Part shown: piece by piece, positions 10,254-34,138 of the stretch
How the letters are laid out: the number at the start of each line of letters is the position of its first letter
Numbering within the stretch: position 1 is the stretch's first letter
Assembly (NCBI GenBank): GCA_000091205.1
Contig: AP006499.2
Direction: 5' to 3' (one strand)
DNA: 64,000 nt
From: Cyanidioschyzon merolae
Lineage: Eukaryota
The notes under the pieces: model-generated
Database searches by the model: none
Seen by the model: the letters and a program-made list of their open reading frames with translations, nothing else
What the model was told of the DNA's origin: nothing
Position numbers and translations under genes: made by a program

Positions 10254-12872
10254 TTATGGAAACTCATAGGCGACTTCCAAAAGAGCAAAATCACATCCCG
10301 GTGCCGCGCGATACAGAGCCAGCAGGCAAGCCATTGGTTTGTTACGAATAGCGGCGAGTCCCTTCTCACGTAGCGAGCCGCGCAAGCTTGCGCCGAAGCG
10401 ACCCAGAAATGCTGTGCGTTTGTTGTAAGTTTTGGCGATCCCTGACCCGAAAACAGTTCTTCCAGGGGTGATGACGACAGGGATCCAGCTATTGTTGTCA
10501 TTCAGAGCGCGAAGGTGCCCAATGTGAATCTCATCGAAGTAAACAGTAGCGAATGAGGATCCTGCTAGCCCTAAAGCCTTCGCTTCCTCGAGCTGAGCCT
10601 TCTCAGGTTTTGAGGTGGATCTGAAGCACGAAAGATATCCGTATACCAGAACCTCTCGTCTTTCTCGTAGAAAGATTTCCGACTGGACTGCTCTAAGTCG
10701 CTCAAACTCAATGCAAAGGTTTTCAATTTTCTCCTGGCCTCCATACAGTGCTGCTAATTGCTCTAGCGTGTCAGTGTATCGAAAGGTGCTATGCTGGATC
10801 CTTCCAAGTGCGAATGTTTGACGTATCTTGACAGATTTTTTCCCCTCCGAGGATTGAATCCATCGAGCTAATGCCAGTATACGACGAACAAGACGATCCT
10901 GCAGAATTACTTTCGGAATATTTTCAGGGAGGCTCGTGCCCTCCGTTCTTTTTTGCTGTTCTCTTACTCCATCTAGCAGGTACATTGAGGTCCATCGGGT
11001 CGAATGTACCTCCATGATGCTGACACCATCAAAAGGAGCATTGTACAGCTCTCGCTTTTCGAGGGATGTTAGCAGGATTGCCGCACCTGGAACGCAGATA
11101 GCATCAAATGCATCGCGTTGGGAGGTTTCATAAAGGCGAATGCAGACGTCTCGCGCTTCGGATCCATCGCGCGCCAAAATGATTCTATATTTCCTAAAAA
11201 TGTAGTAGTCATCTGATGCACTCAGTATTTGCGGTGCACTCGTCCGTTCTGCAGACCTGTACGTCCCGCGCTCTCGATACAGAGGTGACACATGTGTCAC
11301 AATGCATGCTAGAGAGAAATACGAGCGGTCGTCCCATGCATCCAGAGCGCTGGTAAGAATGCAGGGGTGGTAGAGTTCACCCGTTCGACCACCGCCAAGC
11401 TTTGCAATAGGTCCGAAATCAAGTAACTCCTCATAATTATCTGAAAGCTTCCGAATAATGCCCTGGGGCGATGATGCATTCAGGTGAATCTCGCCTCTGC
11501 GTACACGGTAATTCTCTATGATAAGGATGTCACCGAGTTGAATGTGATAAAAATATTTGGAACAAAGCGAATTCCACACGACAACAGTAGCAGAATCCGC
11601 ACCGTCACCTATCTCAAATTCGAATTTGAATGGCACTGACTGCCGCATGTCACTCTTTTTCGGCCATGGCATTAGGGACGTCTTTCTGAGGACGCGCCCG
11701 ATGATTGGTCGCTTCACGTCTCCCATCAGCGCCCTGGCGATGCGCACCGCTGCACTAGTGACTGATTTAATCGAAGCTGGGTCTTCGACACGCTCTACGT
11801 TGCTAGGGTCTCGCAATCTGGAATCGACAGGTAAGGCATCAAACGCTCCAGGACCAAGATAACTCTTTCTCGACGATGCCAAAGGGACATTTGCAGCAGT
11901 CTCAAGCGGGGTGGATGACGTTGTCCAAGCGCATGTCAGGGGAACGTCTATCCAAAAATCCTCGTGGGGTCGACGTAGTACGAGACAGTCATACACAACG
12001 ATTACTCGAGGCGGGTAGAGTCCGCGCAATTCGTTGAAACGAACTGACCATTTTCTTATTTCTAAAATGCTCCCTCGATCTAGGTCACCGGACTGGACGA
12101 TTGAATTCAAATGTGGGTGTAGGCAAAAGCGTGTTTTCGTCTGCTCAACCGGATTGCAGACGGTAATGTCATACGCATCTGCATCCATCTCAGGGATTTC
12201 ATCTTTTGTGCCGTTGACCGTAAACCAATAGGCTTGATCCCGGATATAATGCCGGACGCATAGAACTAGGAACACGATTGAACCGCGGCATTCTTCCCCA
12301 GGAGCACACTCGTGGAGCTTTTCCGTGCCAGCAGTCGTGAATATTTGGTCTCGTTCCTTTGGCTCTGAAGAGCCGCTCTGAACCAGGCTTGAAGAGGCTG
12401 AAACCTGACCTGTGTTGGACTTTGCAAGCTTTTGATTTGCGACTTTTAACGTGCCCTCCCTCGGCCGCTTGCGCTGGTTTCCACGGTTTCCAGTCTGTCG
12501 CTTGCTGCGTGAGTCCCGCGAGTCAGACCCTTCGACCTGTACTGTACGATTCTCTACAGCCTTCTGCAGCGGCTTTGCTCGACTCTTTTGCAGCTCTTCG
12601 TCTTGCCTCCTTTGGAAAATAGGTTTCACATAGTCATCAGCCTTGGTGTCGCCGAAGCGTCCACTTTTACGAGGCATTAACCGTTCTGTACGAGAACGTT
12701 TGTTGTTTTCTCGGATACACTCGCAATCAGAAATTTGCGCCACATTCAAATTGGGCGCGTGCTGGACAGATGGTGCATCATAAGCACAGGATGTATCCAG
12801 CTGCGCGCAGCTTCCGCCTATATCAGTCAAAGATAGAATAGACCCCGTGAGGAAAGTCGGACGTACTCGCAC
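10254..12872 (-). CDS. Hypothetical nuclear protein (872 aa): basic low-complexity N-terminus, central OB-fold-like segment
   Basis: Long uninterrupted ORF. The K/R-rich region is at aa 55-160. 'FKFEFEIGDGADSATVVVWNSLCSKYFYHIQLGDILIIENYRVRRGE' is OB-fold-like. No family was recognised. The first ~23 codons lie inside repeat DR-A, so the true start is probably a downstream Met. Confidence 0.5.
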   Translation of the reverse strand: MRVRPTFLTGSILSLTDIGGSCAQLDTSCAYDAPSVQHAPNLNVAQISDCECIRENNKRSRTERLMPRKSGRFGDTKADDYVKPIFQRRQDEELQKSRAKPLQKAVENRTVQVEGSDSRDSRSKRQTGNRGNQRKRPREGTLKVANQKLAKSNTGQVSASSSLVQSGSSEPKERDQIFTTAGTEKLHECAPGEECRGSIVFLVLCVRHYIRDQAYWFTVNGTKDEIPEMDADAYDITVCNPVEQTKTRFCLHPHLNSIVQSGDLDRGSILEIRKWSVRFNELRGLYPPRVIVVYDCLVLRRPHEDFWIDVPLTCAWTTSSTPLETAANVPLASSRKSYLGPGAFDALPVDSRLRDPSNVERVEDPASIKSVTSAAVRIARALMGDVKRPIIGRVLRKTSLMPWPKKSDMRQSVPFKFEFEIGDGADSATVVVWNSLCSKYFYHIQLGDILIIENYRVRRGEIHLNASSPQGIIRKLSDNYEELLDFGPIAKLGGGRTGELYHPCILTSALDAWDDRSYFSLACIVTHVSPLYRERGTYRSAERTSAPQILSASDDYYIFRKYRIILARDGSEARDVCIRLYETSQRDAFDAICVPGAAILLTSLEKRELYNAPFDGVSIMEVHSTRWTSMYLLDGVREQQKRTEGTSLPENIPKVILQDRLVRRILALARWIQSSEGKKSVKIRQTFALGRIQHSTFRYTDTLEQLAALYGGQEKIENLCIEFERLRAVQSEIFLRERREVLVYGYLSCFRSTSKPEKAQLEEAKALGLAGSSFATVYFDEIHIGHLRALNDNNSWIPVVITPGRTVFGSGIAKTYNKRTAFLGRFGASLRGSLREKGLAAIRNKPMACLLALYRAAPGCDFALLEVAYEFP

Positions 12873-15621
12873 TATATTCTGGACCTATTTTGCACGACCA
12901 TCAGCACAAGTCATTGCAGTTTGCACCGCGACCGCTTCCTTCTCCTTTCCCGTATCTCCGACTTTCAATACGCTGGCGTCTCCTAGCCCTCCAGCTTCGA
13001 TGTCAGCAGGCGAAGGATGCCGATGGCTGCGTTCATTCGAACCCAGAGTTTCCTGCTTCCAGCCCTCATCGACGTACTTCATGCAAAGGCGGAAGTTGTG
13101 ATCTGCGCTTCTTTTAGCATTTTCATCCTTTTTGTCCACAACTCCGGTGCACCCTTCGCAGCGAGGACACTTGCCCGTTGTCCGGTGCCGCCATACGTCC
13201 ATCGCACGTCTTGCTCCGAGTGCCGCCCTGTGGCGCATGCCTGCTTGCAGTGTCGCTCGGTACACGCCCTCGACGGGTGCAGAGCGCTCCGCTCCATGCG
13301 CTCTTCAGTTTCTGTGCCCAGCGCCATACCCTGCGATCACAGGCTCGGGCTGGGCGATCCCCGCGGCAAGCACCCTCACTGCTGGGCGCGTAAACGCTCG
13401 CTGCTCGATTCGAGTACTCGGAATCCGCTCCCTCGCACGCTCTTCGTTTTTCGCGTACGCTTCCCATCGAAGCTGCCGACGAGCATCACGCGACTCGAGG
13501 TGCCGTGCCAGCTCATGAGTATTGTGCGCGCAGGTTCCATCCACTTGCGACGATGCGGGTCAGCCATCTGCGACTCCCTTCGTCTCCGGTCGCTCGCTCG
13601 CTCGCTTGCGTGTTCTTCTATCCCCATACTCGTTCGCTTCCGCTTCAGCGAAGATGGCAGGCGCGGGAGGAGAAGTCACGACTGTGGGCGTAACTCGGAC
13701 GTTTCCGATCCCGTGCCCCGGGACGGGGTGTCGGTTTCCACATGGGCGTCGGGCTTCGCCTCGGGTCTCACGGAGGCGCTGGTGCAACGCTTCGCTCTCC
13801 TTGGGCTCCTGCCGTTGCTAAGTGCACTGGATTGCAGGTTCACGAGGCCACGCATCTGTACAGCTTGCTGCTCATCGTCGCCGTGTTTCCTGTTCTGAGC
13901 AGGGGTGCGTTGGAGCTCTGATGGGGCCTTGAGGCATGTAGGGCGCTCACGACTGATAGCGGTGGATGCTGCCAGGCCATCGGTCTCGAACGAGGACACC
14001 ACGCCTCCTCGACTTTATGTGAGCGTTCTGTTTCTATCTGTTCCCTGCCTGTCGCATCTCTCTTTAGCGTCGTTCGCTTTTCGTTCCCCCAGCGGTTCAT
14101 GAGTGTCTCCGAAGTTTCGGGCGAAATTTGCGTAGTACGCTTCATGTACTCTATGCTGTCGATGGATACCTCCTCTTCTTCGATGTGCTCCTTGGCCTCC
14201 ATAGGACGTTTCCATGCCCTAATCCCTCGTGCGTGGGCGCCCACTTCGCAGCGAGGCGAAAAAGCCGCGAACCGGGGCGCGCGTACGAGCGACCTATAAA
14301 TGCGTTTACAGCAAGGCGAAAATCCATTCCATTCAGGGGCTCTGGAACAGTTCCCGAGGTGCAGAGGCTGTTTCACTCGCTCGGGTAGGCACTCGCAGGC
14401 TGCAGGTCTATAGTCTCCTCGACATGTTCGTCTTCCAGGATACTCAACGGAGGCTCACGCGCTCTGTATATCCGCCCAGCATATTCAAGTCGGCGAAGCG
14501 CCCGTCATGAAGAGCTCGTCCATGCCGTCCAGGCTGGTATCTGAGTCGTCATCCGCACGTATCCACGTCATCGAATCCTTCACGCGCCATGGGAATGAAT
14601 GCTGGCATGATCCAGGGTCGCGCGGCGTAGTTTTCCGCCCATATACACCTTTGAGTTATCCAGGCTGATTTGGGTCGCGAAGCGAATGCTGGCCTCGAAA
14701 TGCGCAACGTCGTTCGGCTATGGAGCCAAAGTGCCCGCGACGTCGATGAAAGCACAGTGCAGGTGAGGTGTGTCCCGACTACGCTTCGAGACAGTGACGG
14801 CATGAAAGGCCATCGATGCCAACGGTGCATCTACGAAGTTGTTCGGTTTCTCAGGGACCCCGATGCACTGGACGTACACGGTCCTAGGCAGGAGGTAAGC
14901 GCGCCACTGACGCATGCTGCAAAGAAGCGCATGTTTGCGGACGCGGAATCTGATATCCGGCGGGTGCGGGTGCATTTCGAAGTATCCCTTGCCGACAGTG
15001 GTGCCGTAGAATACCTCATACAAACAGCGAAGGAGGGAGTTTCCGAGATCGTATCCCGTGAGATGTAGCGCACTGCTTATTTGGGATGTGGTTTCGTTGA
15101 TGGTTGGAAAGCGAGAATATTTTGTGTTTCAAACGGAATCGATTATATGAGGTGAGGATTTGAACATACTTTCGGTATGAGCTCTTGAAGAAGTATTCGC
15201 ACGAAAACTTCCAACTTTTGCGTCGTCAACCGAGCGTAGCGGCCTGGTGCGCCCACGAGTAGCCTTGAAACATGGAGATCGGAAGCGTGCAGAATGCCTG
15301 ACTTGAGCGTGCAACGCGTAACTAAAGGAAAAGAGTTCAGGCTTCCTTGTACGAATTGCATCATGATATCGGCTATTTTAGGCAACGGTATGTGAGGATA
15401 TCTCGAATCACCTTGATGCTGGTGATGTAACGAATCCCTTCGGTGCAAAGTCGAGGGAGCCACTTTGAAGAGTCGACCGAGAATCCTAGAACGATGCATG
15501 AGTCCTGAGGCCCTCATTGCTGGACTATGAATACTCGGGTCCTGCATCTGAAAATGAGTTCGGGTGAAAAATCGAAATCGAGGAACACAGGCAGCAGCTC
15601 CGTGTTCTACTTCACTCCGAC
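12858..15621 (+). repeat. DR-A copy 1: 2.76-kb GC-rich non-coding direct repeat (full length)
   Basis: Collinear with 28111-30874 at a constant offset of 15253, with about 10 substitutions. Its 5' 1.34 kb is collinear with 18615-19951 at offset 5757, with no differences seen. There are no long or conserved ORFs. It contains (CTCG)n at ~13588. Confidence 0.9.
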
Positions 15622-15858
15622 CCGGGTGCCGACTCCGGCGATGCATCGCTGTGACGGCCAGCGGGCCCGCTGAGCTGCTTGCCCGGCGGCGGCAAACGGA
15701 CACGCTGTTGAGTGCACTCGGGGCACACGTTGATCTCGCGCCGGCGTCTATGCGACGCGTTTGAATAGGAACAAACAACAGCAATTTGCTCAACGAACAT
15801 AGTTCTGTGCCAAAGCTTTCCTGGGGAAGGCAGCTATCGAATATGCACAACTTTTAAT

Positions 15859-17118: not shown

Positions 17119-17674
17119 GGCAGTCCATATACAATTTACAGCTCGAGTGCTTCGCCTAAGCATTCGATATCGCGAATTGATCAGAATTTCTTCTGTTAGT
17201 TATGATGCGGCGGTCGGCTTTGTGCGTGCAAAACCCAAACAATGGAACAATGGTGACTGTTTTCTACGCGTTGCAGCCATCCGTTCCCACGTGCGACTCG
17301 GTTTCAGGACCTTCGGATCAGTACCTGAGCTCGCCACTTATTCGAATACTTTTCATGCTATTGGACGAAGCAGATCACCTCCGCGAAAGTTGACACCGCA
17401 TGAGACTTATTTCGTGGACGCGATGTCCAGAAGGCATGCTTAAAGAGCGGCTTGGATGCCTTGACGAGGTGCAGTTCGCCATCTGGCATTTAGGAGAAAA
17501 TGGCCGTACGAGCAAGGGCAGCAGAATCTGCGAGCATTCTAAAGGAAGAATATATGAAGCATCATCTCGAAGATGGCATGGCAGAATTATCTCATCTTTT
17601 ACCACCGTCAAATACTATTCCCCAAGCTTCTAAAATCCTCCGAAGCGTACGTCTCTTACAGTCCCTTTGCCCCT

Positions 17675-18319
17675 TCACTGTAATGGTTGAAAGTTCGTTA
17701 TCTGCTCGAAAGGCATCTTCCCGTTCAAGAACTCACCATGGATGATGCCCGCAAAGCCGAGCATGGCAAGTCGCCCGTTATTCACTTCCCGATCCCGCAT
17801 GGCCTTGTCGTTCGGCAAGTTGAGGGGATTGAAGCCCAGCTCACCAGGCTTCCGCCCTTTCCATTCCATATCGGAATAGAGCACCTTGCCACGGTGGAGC
17901 AGGAACTCAAGAAACCCGATGAATGCTAAGATCTGAATCATGGCCCCAGACTTGACGAAATAGTCATGGGCTGGTCCAGCGAGTTTAGGAGCCCCCGCGA
18001 AGAACGGAAACTGGTAAAACTCGGTTACGAAGAAGTGCAGGCAAGCGAGCATTGCGACGCGCCCGTTCTTAATCTCGCCCTCTTGAAGCCAGTTAACGTC
18101 GAACGCATCAGAGAAGCGAAGCGGGTCAAAACCACGATATCCCGGCATATCAGGCGACAGGTTAGGCGGTTTCGAAAGGAACGGTAGCGCCGGCGACTGC
18201 TCCATTTTTAGAGTAGCATAACCCGAAGCATGTCTCGAACGGATAGCGCTGGTGCCAGTTGCCTTGGATACCGTATTGGCGCGCTGAACAAGTGGAGCGA
18301 AACTCACGAAAGCGTACAT
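17675..18319 (-). CDS. Light-harvesting complex protein, fucoxanthin-chlorophyll a/c (FCP/Lhc) family, last exon
   Basis: Helix 1 is 'EGEIKNGRVAMLACLHF'. Helix 3 is 'REVNNGRLAMLGFAGIIHGEF'. 'IAFIGFLE' is identical to diatom FCP. 'GFDPL' is present. The 'FVS|FAP' motif sits only 6 aa from the ORF Met. Confidence 0.85.
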   Translation of the reverse strand: MYAFVSFAPLVQRANTVSKATGTSAIRSRHASGYATLKMEQSPALPFLSKPPNLSPDMPGYRGFDPLRFSDAFDVNWLQEGEIKNGRVAMLACLHFFVTEFYQFPFFAGAPKLAGPAHDYFVKSGAMIQILAFIGFLEFLLHRGKVLYSDMEWKGRKPGELGFNPLNLPNDKAMRDREVNNGRLAMLGFAGIIHGEFLNGKMPFEQITNFQPLQ

Positions 18320-18614
18320 TATCCAACAGTTGCCTCTGTCGAGAAAGAACGATCACCACACAACCCGAGGGCTTCTAGCGAGAATCTCCGGGCATTTTAC
18401 AGCGCACATGGAGCTGTTGCCGATCGCGGGAGCTCTGCGCCTGCACGCCGCTGCTGTGAGCTCGACGCTCGAAAAGCGATCGTGCCTTCCGAGGCGTCGC
18501 GCGTCACCACAAAATCGGTGGGTGCGCTCGAGCCAGCAACCTCGCCGATGCTGCAGCGGGCGCGCAGCTTCCGCCTATATCAGTCAAAGATAGAATAGAC
18601 CCCGTGAGGAAAGT

Positions 18615-19951
18615 CGGACGTACTCGCACTATATTCTGGACCTATTTTGCACGACCATCAGCACAAGTCATTGCAGTTTGCACCGCGACCGCTTCCTTCT
18701 CCTTTCCCGTATCTCCGACTTTCAATACGCTGGCGTCTCCTAGCCCTCCAGCTTCGATGTCAGCAGGCGAAGGATGCCGATGGCTGCGTTCATTCGAACC
18801 CAGAGTTTCCTGCTTCCAGCCCTCATCGACGTACTTCATGCAAAGGCGGAAGTTGTGATCTGCGCTTCTTTTAGCATTTTCATCCTTTTTGTCCACAACT
18901 CCGGTGCACCCTTCGCAGCGAGGACACTTGCCCGTTGTCCGGTGCCGCCATACGTCCATCGCACGTCTTGCTCCGAGTGCCGCCCTGTGGCGCATGCCTG
19001 CTTGCAGTGTCGCTCGGTACACGCCCTCGACGGGTGCAGAGCGCTCCGCTCCATGCGCTCTTCAGTTTCTGTGCCCAGCGCCATACCCTGCGATCACAGG
19101 CTCGGGCTGGGCGATCCCCGCGGCAAGCACCCTCACTGCTGGGCGCGTAAACGCTCGCTGCTCGATTCGAGTACTCGGAATCCGCTCCCTCGCACGCTCT
19201 TCGTTTTTCGCGTACGCTTCCCATCGAAGCTGCCGACGAGCATCACGCGACTCGAGGTGCCGTGCCAGCTCATGAGTATTGTGCGCGCAGGTTCCATCCA
19301 CTTGCGACGATGCGGGTCAGCCATCTGCGACTCCCTTCGTCTCCGGTCGCTCGCTCGCTCGCTTGCGTGTTCTTCTATCCCCATACTCGTTCGCTTCCGC
19401 TTCAGCGAAGATGGCAGGCGCGGGAGGAGAAGTCACGACTGTGGGCGTAACTCGGACGTTTCCGATCCCGTGCCCCGGGACGGGGTGTCGGTTTCCACAT
19501 GGGCGTCGGGCTTCGCCTCGGGTCTCACGGAGGCGCTGGTGCAACGCTTCGCTCTCCTTGGGCTCCTGCCGTTGCTGAGTGCACTGGATTGCAGGTTCAC
19601 GAGGCCACGCATCTGTACAGCTTGCTGCTCATCGTCGCCGTGTTTCCTGTTCTGAGCAGGGGTGCGTTGGAGCTCTGATGGGGCCTTGAGGCATGTAGGG
19701 CGCTCACGACTGATAGCGGTGGATGCTGCCAGGCCATCGGTCTCGAACGAGGACACCACGCCTCCTCGACTTTATGTGAGCGTTCTGTTTCTATCTGTTC
19801 CCTGCCTGTCGCATCTCTCTTTAGCGTCGTTCGCTTTTCGTTCCCCCAGCGGTTCATGAGTGTCTCCGAAGTTTCGGGCGAAATTTGCGTAGTACGCTTC
19901 ATGTACTCTATGCTGTCGATGGATACCTCCTCTTCTTCGATGTGCTCCTTG
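18615..19951 (+). repeat. DR-A copy 2: 5' half-copy (1.34 kb), identical to copy 1
   Basis: All mirrored ORF peptides are identical to copy 1. An extra ~55 bp of upstream flank (18560-18614) also matches copy 1 (12803-12857) but not copy 3. The repeat ends abruptly at 19951, with 'ctccttg|ttctaacg' versus copy 1 'ctccttg|gcctcc'. Confidence 0.9.
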
Positions 19952-20155
19952 TTCTAACGCGGCCTCAAAACCTTTTTCTTGATCGCGGGACACCTACTTA
20001 GCTGGAACATTGTATGCAAAATCGCTCATGTTTGTTAATACAGAGACCCCGGAGGCACATTCACATGCACGTTCGGGCCCACATTCTCATTCGAAAAAAC
20101 TAACATACAAGTAAGTTCCACAATGCCAAATCTGGCGTGGTTTATGGCGGTACAA

Positions 20156-21922: not shown

Positions 21923-22033
21923 GGTCAGCTAAACCCGTCTCCAGTAAAGCAAGGGAAACCAGCTGTGCACGCACGCCTTTTATCGAGGGACTGCCGTTTT
22001 CGAAATCGCGTTGTATGGATCGCTAACTGCGCC

Positions 22034-23390
22034 CATGCAGGAGTGATTTGGAACTGGTCCCACGTAATTTACTCGGTCGAACACTCTAGTCTTTCAGCCT
22101 CTTCCGTCCGTCATTAACTTCAGCCTTTGCGAGCAGTTTCTGCGTATGTTTCCTTTCCTTTTCCCGTACCTCCGGCTTTAAGTGTGCCGGTACCTCACTT
22201 CCATCCAGCTCCGTTCGAAGCAGTCGAAGGATGGTAATAGTGGCCTTAGGGTCCCGAGTTCATTGCCTACGGTTGCTTTCTACGCATTTCATGCACAGAC
22301 GGTAGTTGCGGCCTGCGCGTCACTTCCCATTTTTATTTTCTATGCATACAGCCTACGTGTGCCCTTCGCTGCGGTGAGACTCGGCCCGGTTCAGTTGTTC
22401 ACATATTTCTACAATGTCCCGTCCTCCGCGGGCACCCCTGTGGCTCGAGGTAGCTTGCTATATCGCTCAGTATATGCCTTTGACCCGTACAGAGGTCTTG
22501 TATCGATGCCCTCCTCGGTTTTTCGCGCGCGGTGCCGTATCCTACGATCATGGGCTTCTTCTGGACGGTTTTCTCAGCGAACATGCTGAAGGCTGCATGC
22601 ACGTGCGAACCTTGTTCCATTTGATAAAAGATTTCTTGTATGCGTGAATGCCCTTGATGGTGCACGCACCGGTAGGTTAATCCCGCATGGAGAAGTCTAG
22701 AAATTCCGATCCGAGTGCGCTTCCTCTGTGGAGAGCGGTGACGCAGACGCCACAGGGAGCGATCGTTGTCATGACTGAAGACGGAGTCCAAAAACATTCT
22801 CCAAGCGAACAGACGACTCAAGAGCCACTCGGAGCGCATCCCTAGAAGGTACCATGCTCCTGCAGAGTCTTATTTAATCGACGGCCGCTAAAAGAGGTAG
22901 ACCAGTTCGTCGAACAAAATCGACTGTTGAACTTGGCAAGTTAGGTCAACTTTCTGAACGACTTTGTGAACATGTCGTTCATGGACGACGTAGAGCCTAT
23001 TTTCTCGTCAATTCATAGGCACGAATTACCGCGACAATGAGTTGCCTTGAAGCAGAGAGATCCGCAACATGAAGAACGCGGGATATGAAAATGTTACAAG
23101 AAAAGAAAGGAAAATACCATGGGTGTGGCAGTATTAATTGGAAACGGTGCCGGCCATTGTACGAACGCTCGTTCCACGGCACCGCGAATCATCCTGATTC
23201 CGGTGATGCGTTTAACTCCGGCAGCGAAACGTCGATGTAAACTTTCCGAAAATACGACCAAGCACCCTGAACTAAGAATGAAACAGTCAAGCCTTATTGC
23301 GACACCTGAGAGAGTCGAGGCTGAACGACTGAAAACCTGGGGGAAGATCATAGCACAAGTATAGAGCAAACCATTCAGTGGTGCACTTAA
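22034..23390. repeat. Left arm of 1.36-kb inverted repeat (IR-B)
   Basis: Its reverse complement matches 24859-26216. The ORF peptides are mirrored with 1-2 aa differences (SMFAEK/SIFAEK, SEHAEG/SENAEG). A degenerate extension runs to ~22011. Confidence 0.9.
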
Positions 23391-24858
23391 TGCTTGCGCA
23401 TATGGTTACTGTGCACGGGATAATAGTATGGAGAGATCTCTTCTATACATCATCAATATGCTGTGTGGGAGGAAGGAATTCATATTCCTACCGCGTAAAA
23501 ACTCGTGCATTTCTATTCGCGTTCGGACAGTAACGTCTTCTAGTCACTGTCTGCGTCACCTTCGAAGACAAAAAAGCTTTGCTCGCAAAACTGACATTTT
23601 TCCGGAATATTTTTACAACGCCCGCAAATAATCGCTAATCCTACTCTATAACCGAATTGTTTAAATAACGGGTACCGGGAAAGATCTGGTTGTTCTACAA
23701 ATTGTGCACTGAACGTTCTGCGCGTGATGCATTTTACTTCTATAGAAAATTGAATTTTCAACACCGAAACCGCTTATTGCGCGCAACCTAAATCGGCGCA
23801 GCGGATTGAGTTTTGATTTACTGCTTGGAAGCTAACTGTTCTATGCTGAATATTCTCTGCGATACGGCAATTCTTTGATCACTTAGTAGACGTCGTTCTA
23901 CTTTTAACATATTCTAACTCTTTTGGGGTTGGCGTGTTCAATTTCGCCTGGCCCGTTCTAGCTGGGGCTGTCTAAAAAGACCAGTTGTCTCTTGTCGTGC
24001 GTTCCATTGCTGCCCGAATGCCATTTCATATTTATTGGTTCAAACCCAAAAAAACTGTCTGACTCTGCTCCGTTGTATCAAGCGAGCCACTTCAATGGGT
24101 CAGAGGTTGTTGAGAACGTCGTATTCTTTCAACCATTAACACAGTTTCAGAAGACGACCGAAGGTTTGCTGGCTGGGACAAGATTTTGCGAAAATTTGCA
24201 GTGCAGCAAATCGGGGATCGATTATTCTTAACAAGTAGAAATGAGATCAAGCTCGAAGAATCAATGAAAATGTGTTTATTCTGCCGTAGGTCGCTCGTTT
24301 TCATCCTTCTGTGCACCCATTATTGTTGGATGTTGTTGCGCTTGAGATGAAGACCCTTTCATAGCTCTCCTAGAATAGAAGTTCATTAGAAATGAAAACT
24401 GCACGATTCAGAAATAAGCTACAGATTCAGGAGTATCTGTTTTGATTCATTCTATTCTCTTCAATTTTTGCTGCCCAAAAAATGCATGTCCAGAGCCCCG
24501 ACGATTCTAGCTAAGCCCTATCTTTCCAGTTTTGCGAACCAGAGTAGTTTTCGACACTAGACATCAAATATTCGGCGTAGAGCGAGGCCGTTTATGATTT
24601 TGTAGCAGAAGAGAGCAAAGCATTCAATTCACGCGTGGTATCTCAGATCAAATGCAGAGTCTCAATCATGACCGTGCCATTTCCATGGCTTCATTTTAGT
24701 GGTGTATCTTCAGGATGTTTTCTGCAGCCGCTGACCGCAGGAAACCACAGTTTCATCGTACACAGACGCTAATTCACCTTGATGAGAGGCTATGGCAGGC
24801 ATATTGCGATGCAGGCGGATGCTGCGACCACAGCACTTCTTTGTACTTCAGTGTCAGC

Positions 24859-26216
24859 TTTAAGTGCACCACTGAATGGTTTGCTCTATACTTGTGCTAT
24901 GATCTTCCCCCAGGTTTTCAGTCGTTCAGCCTCGACTCTCTCAGGTGTCGCAATAAGGCTTGACTGTTTCATTCTTAGTTCAGGGTGCTTGGTCGTATTT
25001 TCGGAAAGTTTACATCGACGTTTCGCTGCCGGAGTTAAACGCATCACCGGAATCAGGATGATTCGCGGTGCCGTGGAACGAGCGTTCGTACAATGGCCGG
25101 CACCGTTTCCAATTAATACTGCCACACCCATGGTATTTTCCTTTCTTTTCTTGTAACATTTTCATATCCCGCGTTCTTCATGTTGCGGATCTCTCTGCTT
25201 CAAGGCAACTCATTGTCGCGGTAATTCGTGCCTATGAATTGACGAGAAAATAGGCTCTACGTCGTCCATGAACGACATGTTCACAAAGTCGTTCAGAAAG
25301 TTGACCTAACTTGCCAAGTTCAACAGTCGATTTTGTTCGACGAACTGGTCTACCTCTTTTAGCGGCCGTCGATTAAATAAGACTCTGCAGGAGCATGGTA
25401 CCTTCTAGGGATGCGCTCCGAGTGGCTCTTGAGTCGTCTGTTCGCTTGGAGAATGTTTTTGGACTCCGTCTTCAGTCATGACAACGATCGCTCCCTGTGG
25501 CGTCTGCGTCACCGCTCTCCACAGAGGAAGCGCACTCGGATCGGAATTTCTAGACTTCTCCATGCGGGATTAACCTACCGGTGCGTGCACCATCAAGGGC
25601 ATTCACGCATACAAGAAATCTTTTATCAAATGGAACAAGGTTCGCACGTGCATGCAGCCTTCAGCATTTTCGCTGAGAAAACCGTCCAGAAGAAGCCCAT
25701 GATCGTAGGATACGGCACCGCGCGCGAAAAACCGAGGAGGGCATCGATACAAGACCTCTGTACGGGTCAAAGGCATATACTGAGCGATATAGCAAGCTAC
25801 CTCGAGCCACAGGGGTGCCCGCGGAGGACGGGACATTGTAGAAATATGTGAACAACTGAACCGGGCCGAGTCTCACCGCAGCGAAGGGCACACGTAGGCT
25901 GTATGCATAGAAAATAAAAATGGGAAGTGACGCGCAGGCCGCAACTACCGTCTGTGCATGAAATGCGTAGAAAGCAACCGTAGGCAATGAACTCGGGACC
26001 CTAAGGCCACTATTACCATCCTTCGACTGCTTCGAACGGAGCTGGATGGAAGTGAGGTACCGGCACACTTAAAGCCGGAGGTACGGGAAAAGGAAAGGAA
26101 ACATACGCAGAAACTGCTCGCAAAGGCTGAAGTTAATGACGGACGGAAGAGGCTGAAAGACTAGAGTGTTCGACCGAGTAAATTACGTGGGACCAGTTCC
26201 AAATCACTCCTGCATG
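24859..26216. repeat. Right arm of inverted repeat IR-B
   Basis: It is the reverse complement of 22034-23390. The inner junction is sharp, with 'ggtgcacttaa' shared and flanks diverging. Confidence 0.9.
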
Positions 26217-26886
26217 AGCGCATTCCATACAATGATCACCTCTGGCAAGCTCGAATCGCCCGAGAAACCTTGAAAGCATTCTATACTTTTTCAGAATTGG
26301 AGGGAAAATTGAAAGCTTTGCCTCAAAACGATTGATAACAAAAAAGGCTGCCTAACCCGAAACCCCGAACTCATACGTCCGTACGCTTGACTTAAAAACT
26401 CGTGCATGAAAACTATTCGAGATTGCCGTATACCAAAAAGTAGATCGATTCATCACATAAGTGCATATCTGCACCCTTTCGCTAATCTGAAACTTGTTCG
26501 TCTGTGGGTTCCAGGTCGCGTGAATAACTCTGCTTGAAGATACAAATCATGATAACGTGTGAAGTCTATGAATTACCACTGGATTGATGAAAAATTTCTC
26601 AGCATATGCGCATCACCTACTGTTTAAAAAGCTCTTGAGAATTTTTACAGAACATGCTCACAATTTCGAAATGCGCGGTTACTTGGTAAGCGACTCTCGT
26701 CTAGGCTGTACTGAACTCGGGGAGTATCTGATAATGAGATGCAGAAATATTGCAAGTATCTAGGCTCTCGAAAGCTTCTCATACCTTGCTAAGGATCACT
26801 GCCTGAAGCATGGCTGATCCTGGGAACATCGCTGTGGAAAATTCAGTTCCTCTAAATTAAGCGTTCTGTAAGTTTGTAGCCAGAAT

Positions 26887-27912
26887 ATGGTATTTGTTAG
26901 GGTACTAGCCAAACCTATTACCTTTCGCTATCTTTCCTTGATTTTAATTTTATACGGAAGTCTTTCTGCTTCTATTGTTGCTGAGAAAAATTGCGTAGTC
27001 TTGGCGGCAAATGTTTTCAACAACGTAGGAACGGTAGACCTGTTTCACACGCTCCTCTCTGACTTAGAGGGAATGCTACAAGCCGCTGGGTTTTCCACAG
27101 GCCTGTGCATCTACGAAGACAACTCGAGGGATGGTACCGACGTTCGAGTTTCCCAGTGGAATCAGTCCCGGCGAGGAACACCGTTCACGAGGATCCTTGC
27201 AGACAAGACACCCCCCACGGCAACGGAACGCGTGTCGAGAATAGCAGTTGTTCGCAGCCGTTTGCTGAATCTTATCCATGAGGTTCTGGCGGAAATGCAA
27301 AATTGTTCTGGACGGTATATATTATTTTTTAACGATGTTGTCTTCGAACCATCGGATGTTCATAAGATGGTGCTAGACGGAATCCGGCAGAACTTTGACA
27401 TGCTCTGCGCAGTGGACGTCTATCGAGGGTTTTATGACCGTTGGGTTACTCGGGATGCCTCTGGATTGATCCCATCGCGGTGGGCATCTGTCTTCTTCAC
27501 CGGGAAAACTGGTTCCAGAATACGCAATAAAGATGCAACTGAGTGGCGGACAGATTTTTGGCCTTCGAGAGCCTGCTGGAATGGAGCTGTTTTGGTTAAC
27601 GCAGAAAGTGCACCGCGCAGTTTCCGCAGTGCGAGGAATGACGAATGCTATGCTTCAGAATGCAAGCTTTTTGTTGACGATCTCTTGAAGGAACGTGGCG
27701 GCCAAGCGCGTGTTGCGGTGAGACTCGATACGCTTGTGGCGTACGACGTTATCCATCTCTTACTACATAAGTTTGTTATCAGGACATATGCCTCCCATAT
27801 TGCTGCTTTTCAAAGCCTCGGAGAACTCATTGTGAAAGCGAAGCATCGCTATCAGGCGGAGAGGGTTCTCCAATCAGACCCCTGTCCGAAATTACCAATG
27901 CTTTGTTGTTGA
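26887..27912 (+). CDS. Putative type II membrane GT-A-fold glycosyltransferase-like protein
   Basis: The N-terminal hydrophobic segment is 'YLSLILILYGSLSASIVA'. 'LCIYEDNSRDGTDV' resembles the GT2/GT-A 'DDGSTDGT' nucleotide-sugar motif. 'ILFFNDVVFEP' is a possible DxD equivalent. It is a 341-aa ORF. Confidence 0.35.
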   Translation: MVFVRVLAKPITFRYLSLILILYGSLSASIVAEKNCVVLAANVFNNVGTVDLFHTLLSDLEGMLQAAGFSTGLCIYEDNSRDGTDVRVSQWNQSRRGTPFTRILADKTPPTATERVSRIAVVRSRLLNLIHEVLAEMQNCSGRYILFFNDVVFEPSDVHKMVLDGIRQNFDMLCAVDVYRGFYDRWVTRDASGLIPSRWASVFFTGKTGSRIRNKDATEWRTDFWPSRACWNGAVLVNAESAPRSFRSARNDECYASECKLFVDDLLKERGGQARVAVRLDTLVAYDVIHLLLHKFVIRTYASHIAAFQSLGELIVKAKHRYQAERVLQSDPCPKLPMLCC

Positions 27913-28110
27913 TTGCTACGGAAATGTTTTGAACTGTTTCACGAATCATTGTTATTTATTTTCAAAAGTAACTCATGAAACTCTCGCAAAGAATTGAAGC
28001 GCATGTGGCCATCCTCCTGTAAGGCGCTTAGCCGTTTAAAAACCATTAATATGGCCCACGCAGATCGTCTTAGACCTATATTAATTTCAGATGGAGGAGA
28101 TCCTCGCACA

Positions 28111-30874
28111 CGGACGTACTCGCACTATATTCTGGACCTATTTTGCACGACCATCAGCACAAGTCATTGCAGTTTGCACCGCGACCGCTTCCTTCTCCTT
28201 TCCCGTATCTCCGACTTTCAATACGCTGGCGTCTCCTAGCCCTCCAGCTTCGATGTCAGCAGGCGAAGGATGCCGATGGCTGCGTTCATTCGAACCCAGA
28301 GTTTCCTGCTTCCAGCCCTCATCGACGTACTTCATGCAAAGGCGGAAGTTGTGATCTGCGCTTCTTTTAGCATTTTCATCCTTTTTGTCCACAACTCCGG
28401 TGCACCCTTCGCAGCGAGGACACTTGCCCGTTGTCCGGTGCCGCCATACGTCCATCGCACGTCTTGCTCCGAGTGCCGCCCTGTGGCGCATGCCTGCTTG
28501 CAGTGTCGCTCGGTACACGCCCTCGACGGGTGCAGAGCGCTCCGCTTCATGCGCTCTTCAGTTTCTGTGCCCAGCGCCATACCCTGCGATCACAGGCTCG
28601 GGCTGGGCGATCCCCGCGGCAAGCACCCTCACTGCTGGGCGCGTAAACGCTCGCTGCTCGATTCGAGTACTCGGAATCCGCTCCCTCGCACGCTCTTCGT
28701 TTTTCGCGTACGCTTCCCATCGAAGCTGCCGACGAGCATCACGCGACTCGAGGTGCCGTGCCAGCTCATGAGTATTGTGCGCGCAGGTTCCATCCACTTG
28801 CGACGATGCGGGTCAGCCATCTGCGACTCCCTTCGTCTCCGGTCGCTCGCTCGCTCGCTTGCGTGTTCTTCTATCCCCATACTCGTTCGCTTCCGCTTCA
28901 GCGAAGATGGCAGGCGCGGGAGGAGAAGTCACGACTGTGGGCGTAACTCGGACGTTTCCGATCCCGTGCCCCGGGACGGGGTGTCGGTTTCCACATGGGC
29001 GTCGGACTTCGCCTCGGGTCTCACGGAGGCGCTGGTGCAACGCTTCGCTCTCCTTGGGCTCCTGCCGTTGCTGAGTGCACTGGATTGCAGGTTCACGAGG
29101 CCACGCATCTGTACAGCTTGCTGCTCATCGTCGCCGTGTTTCCTGTTCTGAGCAGGGGTGCGTTGGAGCTCTGATGGGGCCTTGAGGCATGTAGGGCGCT
29201 CACGACTGATAGCGGTGGATGCTGCCAGGCCATCGGTCTCGAACGAGGACACCACGCCTCCTCGACTTTATGTGAGCGTTCTGTTTCTATCTGTTCCCTG
29301 CCTGTCGCATCTCTCTTTAGCGTCGTTCGCTTTTCGTTCCCCCAGCGGTTCATGAGTGTCTCCGAAGTTTCGGGCGAAATTTGGGTAGTACGCTTCATGT
29401 ACTCTATGCTGTCGATGGATACCTCCTCTTCTTCGATGTGCTCCTTGGCCTCCATAGGACGTTTCCATGCCCTAATCCCTCGTGCGTGGGCGCCCACTTC
29501 GCAGCGAGGCGAAAAAGCCGCGAACCGGGGCGCGCGTACGAGCGACCTATAAATGCGTTTACAGCAAGGCGAAAATCCATTCCATTCAGGGGCTCTGGAA
29601 CAGTTCCCGAGGTGCAGAGGCTGTTTCACTCGCTCGGGTAGGCACTCGCAGGCTGCAGGTCTATAGTCTCCTCGACATGTTCGTCTTCCAGGATACTCAA
29701 CGGAGGCTCACGCGCTCTGTATATCCGCCCAGCATATTCAAGTCGGCGAAGCGCCCGTCATGAAGAGCTCGTCCATGCCGTCCAGGCTGGTATCTGAGTC
29801 GTCATCCGCACGTATCCACGTCATCGAATCCTTCACGCGCCATGGGAATGAATGCTGGCATGATCCAGGGTCGCGCGGCGTAGTTTTCCGCCCATATACA
29901 CCTTTGAGTTATCCAGGCTGATTTGGGTCGCGAAGCGAATGCTGGCCTCGAAATGCGCAACGTCGTTCGGCTATGGAGCCAAAGTGCCCGCGACGTCGAT
30001 GAAAGCACAGTGCAGGTGAGGTGTGTCCCGACTACGCTTCGAGACAGTGACGGCATGAAAGGCCATCGATGCCAACGGTGCATCTACGAAGTTGTTCGGT
30101 TTCTCAGGGACCCCGATGCACTGGACGTACACGGTCCTAGGCAGGAGGTAAGCGCGCCACTGACGCATGCTGCAAAGAAGCGCATGTTTGCGGACGCGGA
30201 ATCTGATATCCGGCGGGTGCGGGTGCATTTCGAAGTATCCCTTGCCGACAGTGGTGCCGTAGAATACCTCATACAAACAGCGAAGGAGGGAGTTTCCGAG
30301 ATCGTATCCCGTGAGATGTAGCGCACTGCTTATTTGGGATGTGGTTTCGTTGATGGTTGGAAAGCGAGAATATTTTGTGTTTCAAACGGAATCGATTATA
30401 TGAGGTGAGGATTTGAACATACTTTCGGTATGAGCTCTTGAAGAAGTATTCGCACGAAAACTTCCAACTTTTGCGTCGTCAACCGAGCGTAGCGGCCTGG
30501 TGCGCCCACGAGTAGCCTTGAAACATGGAGATCGGAAGCGTGCAGAATGCCTGACTTGAGCGTGCAACGCGTAACTAAAGGAAAAGAGTTCAGGCTTCCT
30601 TGTACGAATTGCATCATGATATCGGCTATTTTAGGCAACGGTATGTGAGGATATCTCGAATCACCTTGATGCTGGTGATGTAACGAATCCCTTCGGTGCA
30701 AAGTCGAGGGAGCCACTTTGAAGAGTCGACCGAGAATCCTAGAACGATGCATGAGTCCTGAGGCCCTCATTGCTGGACTATGAATACTCGGGTCCTGCAT
30801 CTGAAAATGAGTTCGGGTGAAAAATCGAAATCGAGGAACACAGGCAGCAGCTCCGTGTTCTACTTCACTCCGAC
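28111..30874 (+). repeat. DR-A copy 3: full-length 2.76-kb direct repeat
   Basis: Collinear with copy 1 at offset 15253. About 10 substitutions are seen as single-aa changes in the mirrored ORFs. The flanks are unrelated to those of copy 1. Confidence 0.9.
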
Positions 30875-33177: not shown

Positions 33178-34138
33178 CCGTTCTCAACGATGCCCCAGGT
33201 GTTCCTCACCGCGGATAGAGAAACAGAAGCACAGTTTGGAGACGGCTGCTCAAAAAATTGCTCTCTGACTCCGAACACCACGACGGTACGGCAGCGGGCA
33301 ATCGTAAAAACGTGCTTCCGGAACGTTCCCTTGCTTGCCGGAACTAAAATAGTGTAGCCCGCGGCACTGCGTACAGCGCAGCGTAGCGATCGTTGCGATG
33401 GCGAGCGGCTCGTCGATCTTGGTTGAAGCCGCGTTCCGCTCATTTTCGTGACTGCGACGGTGGCGGATGTTACGGCCATGGCCATAGCCATAGCCATAGT
33501 AAAAGAGCGCTCCACTCGTGCCAAATTACGCTGGAACACTAAAGTGCTTCCAGTTTTCCTGGGTCTCGAATTTTAGGCCCGCTTTTAAGTAAAAAGCGCC
33601 GAATTTCCGAGAACACCAACGAGATCTTACGGAGTCAAGCATAGCACTAGGAATCCCGGTCCTCGATTCAGCGTGGCTTCCTGGGTTTTGCCGCTGGAAT
33701 TCGTTGTATCACTGGACTCAAGATGCTTCACGACGCCCTCGAACTAGGGATGATTAACTTCCTGTTATCATTATCCTGTATATGAGTGCAAGCCTCCACA
33801 CGTTTCCTTACCATATGTCTAGCGTGCTCAAGTCATGCATTCTCCAGGATTTCCATATTTCTGGTTCGAGGGGATTCATAGGCGCAGCGATTTGAGCCAC
33901 TGGATTAAAGACGAAAAATACTTGAAGCTATTCGTTAAAACCCTGTTCATCATTCCATGCCGAAAGTTCAGAAAATGTGGCATATGGAAAGATCAGTACC
34001 ATTTGAAACACCTATCCGCCTCTCTTTGTGGTCATCCACGCAAAGTCATTCCATAGCAATACCTTAGCGCTCACGAGCTACGTTGCAAGAGGCTCCCGTC
34101 CCATTTGTTTACATGAAGAAGGGTCCTGGACTCGGGAT

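What the first reader, a model, noticed from the sequence alone, without database searches (positions are those of the whole stretch)
12803..30874. Three-copy 2.76-kb non-coding direct repeat (DR-A) interleaved with unique genes
Two full copies lie at 12858-15621 and 28111-30874. They are collinear without indels and show about 10 substitutions, i.e. about 99.7% identity. One 5' half-copy lies at 18615-19951. The copies sit 3 kb and 8 kb apart, separated by ordinary single-copy genes: Sec14, LHC, a 588-aa protein and a glycosyltransferase-like ORF. The element has no conserved ORF, no TG..CA termini, no TIRs and no obvious target-site duplication. It is therefore neither a classical LTR pair nor an autonomous transposon. 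The near-identity implies very recent duplication or ongoing gene conversion. The element could be a large non-autonomous element such as a LARD, a recombination-prone segmental duplicon, or a multicopy non-coding RNA locus.
Basis: seen in the sequence. Interest (0 to 1): 0.7.

Follow-up and report, generated by a model that had tools for sequence, protein, structure and literature searches.

The report
Dead IS630/mariner-type transposon, recently triplicated
The three near-identical 2.8-kb repeats are copies of a long-dead "cut-and-paste" DNA transposon of the red alga Cyanidioschyzon merolae that were recently re-copied by the cell's own recombination or repair, so this is an ordinary kind of genomic fossil and not a new type of element.

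Summary
The repeat is real. Units 12858-15621 and 28111-30874 are collinear with 4 mismatches in 2764 nt. Copy 18560-19951 matches 12803-14194 with 1 mismatch. Independent metagenome and Logan contigs reproduce every junction.

The window is C. merolae 10D chromosome 17 (genes CMQ14x-15x).

DR-A is not an isolated non-coding duplicon. It belongs to a family with 8 copies in this window: A1-A3, the inverted pair B1/B2, and C, D and E. A further type lies elsewhere in the genome. Types share only 55-60% identity.

The family is a decayed IS630/Tc1-mariner transposase gene, read on the strand opposite to window '+' of DR-A:
- Consensus against NCBIfam IS630: E 7.5e-7.
- Profile against P0068, a real DDE_3/IS630 transposase: E 2.8e-32; hhalign probability 99.8%.
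- Direct tblastn of P0068 hits every copy.
- The consensus ends retain a terminal inverted repeat.

In DR-A, the transposase core (aa 177-238, including the second catalytic D) is replaced by 1.6 kb of orphan DNA.

The near-identity tracts omit one or both inverted-repeat remnants. I therefore infer recent recombination or repair copying, not canonical transposition. That mechanism is not proven.

The LARD, LTR, Helitron and ncRNA readings are not supported. Interest is low.

The parts
12803..15648 (-). Copy A1: a whole decayed IS630/Tc1-mariner-type element, with the transposase sense on the '-' strand. The tract shared with A3 is 12858-15621; the tract shared with A2 is 12803-14194.
   Evidence: Self-BLASTN; family nhmmer; consensus TIR mapping.
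18560..19951 (-). Copy A2: a partial copy holding the left terminus, the transposase C-terminal remnant and the first 789 nt of the orphan segment. It lacks the whole N-terminal/right end. It has 1 mismatch to A1.
   Evidence: (5' block only).
28111..30874 (-). Copy A3: 2764 nt with 4 mismatches to A1. The 55 nt to its left (28056-28110) resemble A1's left end at only about 54% identity.
15018..15547 (-). Remnant of transposase aa 1-176 in A1 (the same in A3 at 30271-30800). It covers the HTH DNA-binding region and the first catalytic D region ('INETT', against consensus 'IDETT').
   Evidence: tblastn of the consensus transposase; tblastn of the real IS630 transposase P0068 gives aa 11-118 = 15517-15176, E 3e-5.
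13406..15017 (.). Orphan 1612-nt segment specific to the A type. It replaces the ~190 nt that encode transposase aa 177-238 (including the second catalytic D) in the short copies B-E.
   Evidence: Alignment; tblastn. No similarity to the family, to Pfam, to viral contigs or elsewhere in the window.
13082..13405 (-). Remnant of transposase aa 239-346 (C-terminal part) in A1. The same remnant is at 18839-19162 in A2 and 28335-28658 in A3.
   Evidence: tblastn (57% identity to the consensus, E 1.7e-29).
12806..12839 (+). Left terminal-inverted-repeat remnant. The consensus reads TGCACCCATGnCAGACTAAAATGGAAC. It lies outside the A1/A3 identity tract and inside the A1/A2 tract.
   Evidence: Left-end consensus against the reverse complement of the right-end consensus scores 32. 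The shuffle mean is 15 +/- 2.2, the maximum is 24, and 0 of 300 shuffles reach 32.
15604..15648 (-). Right terminal-inverted-repeat remnant. The A1/A3 identity ends at 15621, inside it.
14655..15065 (+). 137-aa open frame inside the orphan segment (132 aa from TTG, 122 aa from ATG). Its codon usage is gene-like, but it has no homologues.
   Evidence: Its codon score is 0.148 bits/codon, against a maximum of 0.104 for 58 wrong-frame ORFs. In 1.84e9 representatives only its own cluster and spurious repeat-protein hits were found. AF2 pLDDT is 39.
22028..23418 (-). Copy B1 (short form, ~1.3 kb) of the same family.
24846..26222 (+). Copy B2, an inverted near-identical twin of B1 (3 mismatches in 1367 nt).
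33488..34852 (+). Copy C (short form).
   Evidence: nhmmer; P0068 tblastn E 1.9e-8.
48612..49952 (+). Copy D (short form).
61703..63084 (+). Copy E (short form); the best-preserved transposase remnant.
   Evidence: nhmmer; P0068 tblastn E 4e-14, showing 'AIDETGF' and 'NIAF' motifs.

Best explanation
DR-A is a dead, non-autonomous copy of an IS630/Tc1-mariner (ITm, Pfam DDE_3) cut-and-paste DNA transposon in the nuclear genome of Cyanidioschyzon merolae 10D (chromosome 17).

The ancestral element was about 1.3 kb long. It had ~30-nt terminal inverted repeats and one ~345-codon transposase gene (two HTH motifs followed by a DDE catalytic core). Relative to DR-A, that gene reads on the window's minus strand. 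Old insertions of this family have decayed neutrally to 55-60% mutual identity. They now fill many intergenic regions here (8 copies, ~21% of the window).

In the A lineage, the part of the catalytic core containing the second aspartate was replaced by 1.6 kb of orphan DNA. This element therefore cannot make a transposase.

The three copies differ by only 0.04-0.15%, so they arose very recently. I infer, without having shown it, that they arose by DNA-level copying through homologous or microhomology-directed recombination or break repair. That covers segmental duplication and conversion-like replacement. I do not think the element transposed itself.

The copies themselves most likely have no function. 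They act as dispersed homology that promotes further rearrangement.

Shown: the repeat, the family, the transposase and TIR remnants, and the deleted core. Inferred: the copying mechanism and the lack of function.
For: Organism and locus:
- Exact protein look-ups give C. merolae 10D genes CMQ142C, CMQ144C and CMQ146C on a 1,232,258-bp record.

Family:
- BLASTN and nhmmer find 8 copies in the window.
- A 6th type lies at another locus (L040-L047).

Transposase identity:
- The consensus frame matches Pfam DDE_3 at E 3.7e-4, and at 2.3e-3 with HTH_33 upstream.
- It matches NCBIfam IS630 at E 7.5e-7, collinear over 190 residues.
- A profile of the per-copy translations finds P0068 at E 2.8e-32.
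- hhalign gives probability 99.8%, E 5e-29, over 239 columns.
- P0068 itself passes the curated cut-offs: DDE_3 at 95 bits and NF033545 IS630 at 127 bits against a cut-off of 100.
- P0068 tblastn against the raw window hits A1, A3, B1, B2, C, D and E, with E values down to 4e-14.

TIR remnant:
- Significant at the consensus level.

Neutral decay:
- There is no codon periodicity in the substitutions, and every copy carries stops and frameshifts.

Deleted core in A:
-.

Against self-transposition:
- The A1/A3 tract (12858-15621) excludes the left TIR remnant and the outer part of the right one.
- The A1/A2 tract ends at 14194, inside the orphan DNA.
- No TA or other target-site duplication is seen at the tract ends.
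- The A-specific half was found only in the A1 and A3 contexts among 20 contigs listed and mapped, out of 48 read.

Background (not tested here):
- Nozaki 2007 (PMC1955436) reports transposase-related elements closest to bacterial transposases in this genome.
- From general knowledge, C. merolae integrates DNA efficiently by homologous recombination.
Against: - Two independent duplications (A1/A2 and B1/B2) begin within 1-2 nt of the inferred left terminus. That is unexpected for random segmental duplication and hints at a terminus-directed, possibly transposase-dependent, step.
- If A3 kept the ends of an older resident copy, ordinary gene conversion between 55-60% identical sequences should not work. 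The homology of A3's left flank is only weakly supported (p~0.013).
- I could not search the whole C. merolae assembly, so copy number outside this window is known only indirectly.
- The TIR and terminus positions rest on a 6-sequence consensus.
- TA target duplications are at best visible in 2 of 6 types.
Confidence: 0.6

Rival explanations
1. The A element is a non-autonomous ITm transposon that was recently mobilised in trans by an intact transposase encoded elsewhere in the C. merolae genome. The odd boundaries would reflect aberrant events: one-ended or alternative transposition, or abortive gap repair.
For: - The A1/A2 and B1/B2 identity tracts start at the inferred left terminus to within 1-2 nt.
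- B1/B2 form an inverted pair around a spacer, as alternative transposition can produce.
- There is a possible polymorphic extra partial copy at 30964 in natural samples.
Against: - No pair of copies shares both termini.
- There are no TA duplications at the tract ends.
- The family is otherwise 40-45% diverged and every copy seen is dead.
- The only intact relative found, P0068, is 38% identical and of unknown host.
- The A-specific half was seen in only two contexts.
Confidence: 0.2
2. DR-A, or its 1.6-kb orphan segment, is one of the 253 'novel interspersed repetitive elements' ('WSV repeats') of the C. merolae genome papers. Those elements average 3.2 kb, make up 5% of the genome, are transcribed, are often marked by H3K27me3, and carry a truncated ORF weakly similar to WSSV protein WSV486.
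For: - Literature only: PMC1955436 and PMC5405695.
- The size (2.76 kb) is near the reported mean.
- The locus-tag numbers missing between CMQ142C, CMQ144C and CMQ146C coincide with A2 and B1/B2. This suggests the annotators gave these repeats their own identifiers.
Against: - The A-specific ORF has no diverged relatives among 1.84e9 protein representatives.
- The A-specific half occurs in only two contexts.
- Scans of viral contigs with two of its ORFs found nothing.
- What is conserved across the family is an IS630-type transposase. That fits the papers' separate 'class II, bacterial-transposase-like' category better.
Confidence: 0.15
3. The repeat is an assembly artefact, produced by collapse or false duplication.
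For: No single independent contig spans a full 2.76-kb copy from unique flank to unique flank.
Against: - All six repeat/unique junctions recur in independent assemblies from many samples and three pipelines.
- A 2764-nt Logan unitig is bounded exactly by the repeat ends (L032).
- The reference is the finished telomere-to-telomere assembly (PMC1955436).
Confidence: 0.02
4. The unit is a multicopy non-coding RNA locus, or an LTR-type non-autonomous element (LARD).
For: - No intact ORF is present.
- Base composition is strongly strand-asymmetric (AT skew about -0.19), which is compatible with transcription of the minus strand.
Against: - No Rfam family reaches its gathering score, and there are no tRNAs.
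- RNAalifold gives a positive (penalising) covariation term.
- No direct repeat of 100 nt or more lies within the unit, and none longer than 20 nt lies in the orphan segment 13380-15060.
- The conserved signal is a transposase pseudogene.
Confidence: 0.03

Closest known systems
IS630 family / Tc1-mariner (ITm) superfamily DNA transposons (Pfam DDE_3 PF13358; NCBIfam NF033545)
   Same: - The short form is about 1.3 kb, the typical size.
- It carries a single transposase gene with N-terminal HTH motifs.
- The recognisable motifs are 'DE(T/S)xF' at the first aspartate, 'DNxxFHKS' at the second, and a 'YSPxxNP' region.
- A terminal inverted-repeat remnant is present.
- The closest real protein, P0068, passes the curated IS630 and DDE_3 thresholds.
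   Different: - All copies here are pseudogenes with stops and frameshifts.
- DR-A lacks the segment with the second catalytic aspartate and carries 1.6 kb of unrelated DNA in its place.
- TA target duplications cannot be demonstrated.
- The recent copies were not made from terminus to terminus.
'Class II elements (transposons)' of C. merolae reported by Nozaki et al. 2007 (PMC1955436)
   Same: - Same genome.
- They are described as transposase-related elements whose best matches are bacterial transposases (E 0.071 to 6e-7). A decayed IS630-like gene would give exactly that.
   Different: - The paper counts only eight in the whole genome, whereas eight copies of this family lie in this 64-kb window alone.
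- Whether any of the eight is one of these copies could not be checked.
C. merolae 'WSV repeat' / novel interspersed repetitive element (PMC1955436; PMC5405695)
   Same: - Same genome.
- It is an intergenic, kilobase-scale repeat with only truncated reading frames.
   Different: - The defining WSV486 similarity was not tested.
- The A-specific part is low-copy.
- The family-wide conserved part is an IS630-type transposase.
Internally rearranged non-autonomous DNA transposons carrying foreign DNA (e.g. Pack-MULE-like cargo elements)
   Same: - The transposon ends and gene remnants are kept while the interior is replaced by unrelated DNA.
- That DNA contains an ORF with host-like codon usage.
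   Different: - No parent host gene was found for the inserted DNA.
- There is no evidence that the composite transposes.

Membership tests
IS630/Tc1-mariner (ITm) transposon | Encodes a DDE_3-type transposase with N-terminal helix-turn-helix DNA-binding region | tested here: met
   Met as a pseudogene remnant.
- Consensus against NF033545: E 7.5e-7.
- DDE_3 and HTH_33 found in the correct order.
- Profile against P0068: E 2.8e-32.
- hhalign: probability 99.8%.
- P0068 passes the curated cut-offs.
- P0068 tblastn hits every copy in the raw DNA.
IS630/Tc1-mariner (ITm) transposon | Intact catalytic D-D-E/D triad and uninterrupted ORF (an autonomous, active member) | tested here: not met
   - Every copy has stops and frameshifts.
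- In DR-A, aa 177-238 including the second D are deleted.
- These are relics, not active members.
IS630/Tc1-mariner (ITm) transposon | Terminal inverted repeats | tested here: inconclusive
   - No TIR is detectable in any single copy.
- The consensus ends of the 6 types are inverted repeats over about 27-34 nt, with score 32 against a shuffle maximum of 24 in 300 shuffles.
IS630/Tc1-mariner (ITm) transposon | TA target-site duplication | tested here: inconclusive
   Reading the alignment:
- TA precedes the inferred left terminus in copies C and E.
- TG precedes it in A1 and B1, and CG in D.
- The right ends are too eroded to read.
IS630/Tc1-mariner (ITm) transposon | Unit length about 1.1-1.4 kb (IS630, mariner) | tested here: met
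   - B, C, D, E and G are collinear at about 1.29-1.37 kb.
- DR-A is longer only because of the 1.6-kb replacement.
C. merolae 'WSV repeat' (253-copy interspersed element) | Truncated ORF with weak BLASTX similarity to WSSV WSV486 | not testable with these tools
   - The WSV486 sequence could not be obtained.
- Viral-contig scans with two DR-A ORFs found nothing.
C. merolae 'WSV repeat' (253-copy interspersed element) | High copy number, dispersed over all chromosomes | tested here: inconclusive
   - The A-specific half was found only in the A1 and A3 contexts.
- Its ORF has no diverged relatives.
- The whole genome could not be searched.
LTR retrotransposon derivative (LARD/TRIM) | Long terminal direct repeats, TG..CA ends, PBS/PPT | tested here: not met
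   - No direct repeat of 100 nt or more was found within a unit, and none longer than 20 nt in the orphan segment 13380-15060.
- The unit ends read CGGACG...CCGAC.
- A tentative RT-like reading of the minus strand got no Pfam support.
Helitron | 5'-TC ... CTRR-3' termini with a subterminal hairpin, inserted in AT | tested here: not met
   The termini and flanks read directly do not fit on either strand.
Structured non-coding RNA family | Match to a curated RNA family, or conserved base-pairing with covariation | tested here: not met
   - Rfam at gathering threshold gives 0 hits in the window.
- The RNAalifold covariation term is +4.64, i.e. penalising.

The most novel reading that the evidence does not exclude
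Dead ITm relics in C. merolae are still being copied by a terminus-anchored, non-canonical process. Examples would be one-ended nicking by a surviving or domesticated transposase, followed by break-induced or template-switch replication in this recombination-proficient genome. This would explain two observations: independent duplications start exactly at the left terminus, and they stop inside the right inverted repeat. In addition, the 1.6-kb cargo with its gene-like 137-aa ORF might be a lineage-specific gene that is being amplified in this way.
Probability: 0.1. Interest if true: 0.5.

Novelty: new member of a known kind. Interest (0 to 1): 0.22.

Why it matters
- It replaces an 'enigmatic non-coding repeat' with a concrete identity: a fossil IS630/Tc1-mariner family.
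- In this stretch of the 'simplest' eukaryotic genome, about a fifth of the DNA is decayed transposon. That is far above the 0.7% transposon figure in the genome paper, and it agrees with later automated annotations that found many more elements.
- The near-identical copies are dispersed homology in a genome that recombines readily. This is relevant to gene-targeting design around CMQ14x-15x and to how this compact genome rearranges.
- It does not reveal a new kind of element.

Tried and rejected
1. Pfam on 10 and then 89 raw ORF pieces from all copies found nothing. Only the family consensus exposed the transposase.
2. A concatenated minus-strand pseudo-protein with X spacers returned no hits at all. 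This is probably a technical failure of the query format.
3. The 293-aa plus-strand ORF found only its own cluster.
4. A conserved 33-nt DNA motif was scanned in metagenome contigs.
5. Codon periodicity and RNA covariation across the family were both absent.
6. A reverse-transcriptase-like reading of the minus strand ('AFIDVAG', 'RADDD') got no Pfam support and was dropped.
7. The 137-aa ORF: phmmer against 1.84e9 representatives gave only spurious ankyrin/HYR repeat hits. AlphaFold gave pLDDT 39, so no fold search was run.
8. Per-copy TIR searches gave nothing above chance.
9. I tried to show with a short nhmmer profile that A3's flanks are old family ends. The profile was too short to score. 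A pairwise test is only p~0.013 on the left and not significant on the right.
10. Diagnostic SNPs in metagenome contigs were uninformative, because short-read assemblies merge the copies.
11. The orphan segment compared with the family profile and with the transposases gave nothing.
12. The phage database and viral contigs gave nothing.
13. Matsuzaki 2004 is not held in the library. Locus tags CMQ139-147 do not appear in any searchable paper.
Full report
**1. Observation**

Self-BLASTN of the window and the repeat finder confirm the repeat almost exactly as described. All alignments are gap-free.
- 12858-15621 vs 28111-30874: 2764 nt, 4 mismatches.
- 12803-14194 vs 18560-19951: 1392 nt, 1 mismatch.
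- 18615-19951 vs 28111-29447: 3 mismatches.

The partial copy begins 55 nt further left than stated, and it shares that extension with copy 1 only.

The mismatch pattern makes A1 and A2 sisters. I call the copies A1 (12803-), A2 (18560-) and A3 (28111-).

The window holds other near-identical pairs:
- An inverted pair 22028-23394 / 24856-26222 (3 mismatches).
- An inverted pair 2805-4043 / 7800-9038 (9 mismatches).

**2. Source and reality of the repeat**

Exact look-ups of window proteins identify Cyanidioschyzon merolae 10D, on a 1,232,258-bp record, which is chromosome 17. The genes include CMQ142C (Lhcr1), CMQ144C and CMQ146C.

Contigs assembled independently from many JGI, ENA and Logan samples are 99.8-99.9% identical to the window. 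They reproduce each repeat/unique junction.

Several 5880-nt 'circular' contigs equal the 5757-nt A1-A2 spacing plus a k-mer. A 2764-nt unitig is bounded exactly by the repeat ends. Both are the expected graph signatures of a true repeat. An assembly artefact is therefore very unlikely.

**3. DR-A is one member of a diverged family**

Sensitive BLASTN and nhmmer profiles find the same two conserved blocks in five further places. The left block is ~0.5 kb and the right block is ~0.6 kb. The further places are:
- B1 22058-23418
- B2 24846-26192
- C 33488-34852
- D 48612-49952
- E 61703-63084

Types share 55-60% identity. B to E are collinear ~1.3-kb elements. In the A type, the ~190-nt middle is replaced by ~1.6 kb (13406-15017).

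Together the eight copies cover about 13.6 kb, roughly a fifth of the window.

A sixth type lies at another C. merolae-like locus, next to a mitochondrial-carrier gene and a 6PF2K gene (L040-L047).

**4. What the family is**

The first tests were negative:
- No consistent ORF.
- No Pfam domain in 89 ORF pieces.
- No codon periodicity of substitutions.
- No RNA covariation.
- No Rfam or tRNA hit.

A majority consensus of the five types changed the picture. On the strand opposite to window '+' of DR-A, one frame runs for about 345 codons with seven stops. Its matches are:
- Pfam DDE_3 at E 3.7e-4, and at E 2.3e-3 with HTH_33 upstream.
- NCBIfam IS630 transposase at E 7.5e-7, collinear over 190 residues.

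A profile of per-copy conceptual translations found P0068, a 261-aa metagenomic protein, at E 2.8e-32. hhalign gives probability 99.8%, E 5e-29, over 239 columns.

P0068 itself passes the curated thresholds:
- DDE_3 at 95 bits.
- IS630 family transposase at 127 bits, against a cut-off of 100.
- It also has weak PDB matches to the Mos1 mariner and Tc3 transposases.

Independently of any consensus, tblastn of P0068 against the raw window hits every copy:
- E: 4e-14
- C: 1.9e-8
- A1 and A3: 1e-5 to 3e-5
- D: 7e-4
- B1 and B2: 4e-3

The motifs 'AIDETGF' and 'NIAF' are visible in these alignments.

The consensus left end and the reverse complement of the consensus right end align over ~30 nt (TGCAC..TG.CAGAyTAAArTGGAAC). 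The score is 32, against a maximum of 24 in 300 shuffles. This is a terminal-inverted-repeat remnant.

TA target duplications are only hinted at, in copies C and E.

I conclude, at about 0.9 confidence, that the family consists of fossil IS630/Tc1-mariner elements that have decayed neutrally.

**5. Anatomy of DR-A (A1 coordinates)**

| Feature | Coordinates | Strand |
|---|---|---|
| Left TIR remnant | 12806-12839 | + |
| Transposase aa 239-346 | 13405-13082 | - |
| Orphan segment | 13406-15017 | n/a |
| Transposase aa 1-176 | 15547-15018 | - |
| Right TIR remnant | 15604-15648 | - |

Residues 177-238, which include the second catalytic aspartate, are missing. The element is dead.

The orphan segment matches nothing:
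- Not the family or the transposases.
- Not Pfam.
- Not the rest of the window.
- Not viral contigs.

Its 137-aa plus-strand ORF has the most gene-like codon usage of any non-gene ORF in the window. Its score is 0.148 bits per codon, against a maximum of 0.104 for 58 wrong-frame ORFs. It has no true homologue among 1.84 billion representatives, and its structure prediction has low confidence, pLDDT 39. Its status is open.

**6. How the three near-identical copies arose (inference)**

The types differ by 40-45%, but A1, A2 and A3 differ by 0.04-0.15%. That is no more than the difference between the reference and natural populations.

The identity tracts are not terminus to terminus:
- A1/A3 (12858-15621) starts 19 nt inside the left TIR remnant and ends 17 nt into the right one.
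- A1/A2 starts at the inferred left terminus but stops at 14194, inside the orphan DNA.

No target duplication flanks the tracts.

In the contigs examined, the A-specific half occurs only in the A1 and A3 contexts.

The element has no transposase of its own. I therefore favour recent DNA-level copying by recombination or break repair, at about 0.55-0.6 confidence. This is plausible in an organism known, from general knowledge, for efficient homologous recombination.

Several points count against a simple version of this explanation:
- A1/A2 and B1/B2 both begin within 1-2 nt of the left terminus.
- A1/A3 and B1/B2 both end inside the right TIR remnant, about 8 nt apart. This regularity hints at a terminus-directed step.
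- A3's left 55 nt look like a diverged family end, but the support is weak (p~0.013).
- If that homology is real, classical conversion between such diverged copies would be hard to explain.

These points are recorded as unexplained.

**7. Comparison with the literature**

Nozaki et al. 2007 (PMC1955436) report two categories for this genome:
- Eight class II elements whose best matches are bacterial transposases.
[quoted passage not shown] These average 3.2 kb, carry a truncated ORF weakly similar to WSSV WSV486, and are transcribed. Later papers call them 'WSV repeats' and report that many are marked by H3K27me3 (PMC5405695).

A later EDTA annotation lists 1755 elements (bioRxiv 10.1101/2022.10.24.513474).

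The family described here fits the first category in kind, but it is far more numerous than eight.

Whether DR-A is also annotated as a WSV repeat could not be tested.

No searchable paper links Cyanidioschyzon with IS630 or mariner.

**8. Verdict**

- This is a new member of a well-known kind.
- It has modest value for annotating the C. merolae genome, and its copying mechanism is unresolved.
- Interest is 0.22.

Noticed in passing
window 2805-4043 and 7800-9038: A 1239-nt inverted repeat (9 mismatches) flanks the 639-aa gene at 4619-6538. It has no Pfam domain and no relation to the IS630-like family.
   Followed up: partly
window 22028-23394 and 24856-26222: B1 and B2 are an inverted, 99.8%-identical pair of the same transposon family, placed around a 1461-nt spacer. 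Their identity starts at the left terminus ('TGCGC...') and ends inside the right TIR remnant, about 8 nt before the homologous point where A1/A3 identity ends.
   Followed up: partly
window 17593-18382; locus L005 205-994: The Lhcr1 (CMQ142C) gene plus ~60-80 nt on each side occurs 99.7% identical in a different context, next to a PIN/PhoH gene. The LHC gene is therefore not single-copy, and this genome shows other very recent gene-sized duplications or conversions.
   Followed up: no
window 47713-47976 (+): tblastn of the real IS630 transposase P0068 (aa 170-258) hits here at E 2.9e-6. This is a further, older transposase relic that the family profiles do not detect.
   Followed up: no
window 30964; locus L016 1639-2302; L037 end: One metagenome contig joins 30964 (90 nt right of A3) to A-unit position ~13533 through a 2-nt microhomology. 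A Logan unitig from another sample stops at 30963. This is either a polymorphic fourth partial copy or an assembly chimera.
   Followed up: partly
locus L028 (window 62412-63365 at 98.7%): Copy E occurs with a different right-hand flank in one metagenome contig. This suggests a paralogous copy or a strain rearrangement.
   Followed up: no
whole window: The eight IS630-like relics cover about 13.6 kb (~21%) of this 64-kb stretch. The genome paper states that transposons make up 0.7% of the genome.
   Followed up: partly
family alignments A1, A2 (window copies A-E): Copies differ by 40-45% in substitutions, spread evenly over codon positions, but by only a few indels per 1.3 kb. This is an unusually low indel-to-substitution ratio for neutrally decaying DNA.
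   Followed up: no
window 57989-58184 and 58335-58530: A 196-nt inverted repeat (80% complementary, 150-nt loop) lies in the intergenic region before the 798-aa gene.
   Followed up: no
window 12001-14000 and 28001-30000: The left half of DR-A has higher G+C (0.56-0.58) than many neighbouring 2-kb bins (0.46-0.51). It also shows a strong T>A asymmetry on the plus strand (AT skew about -0.19).
   Followed up: no
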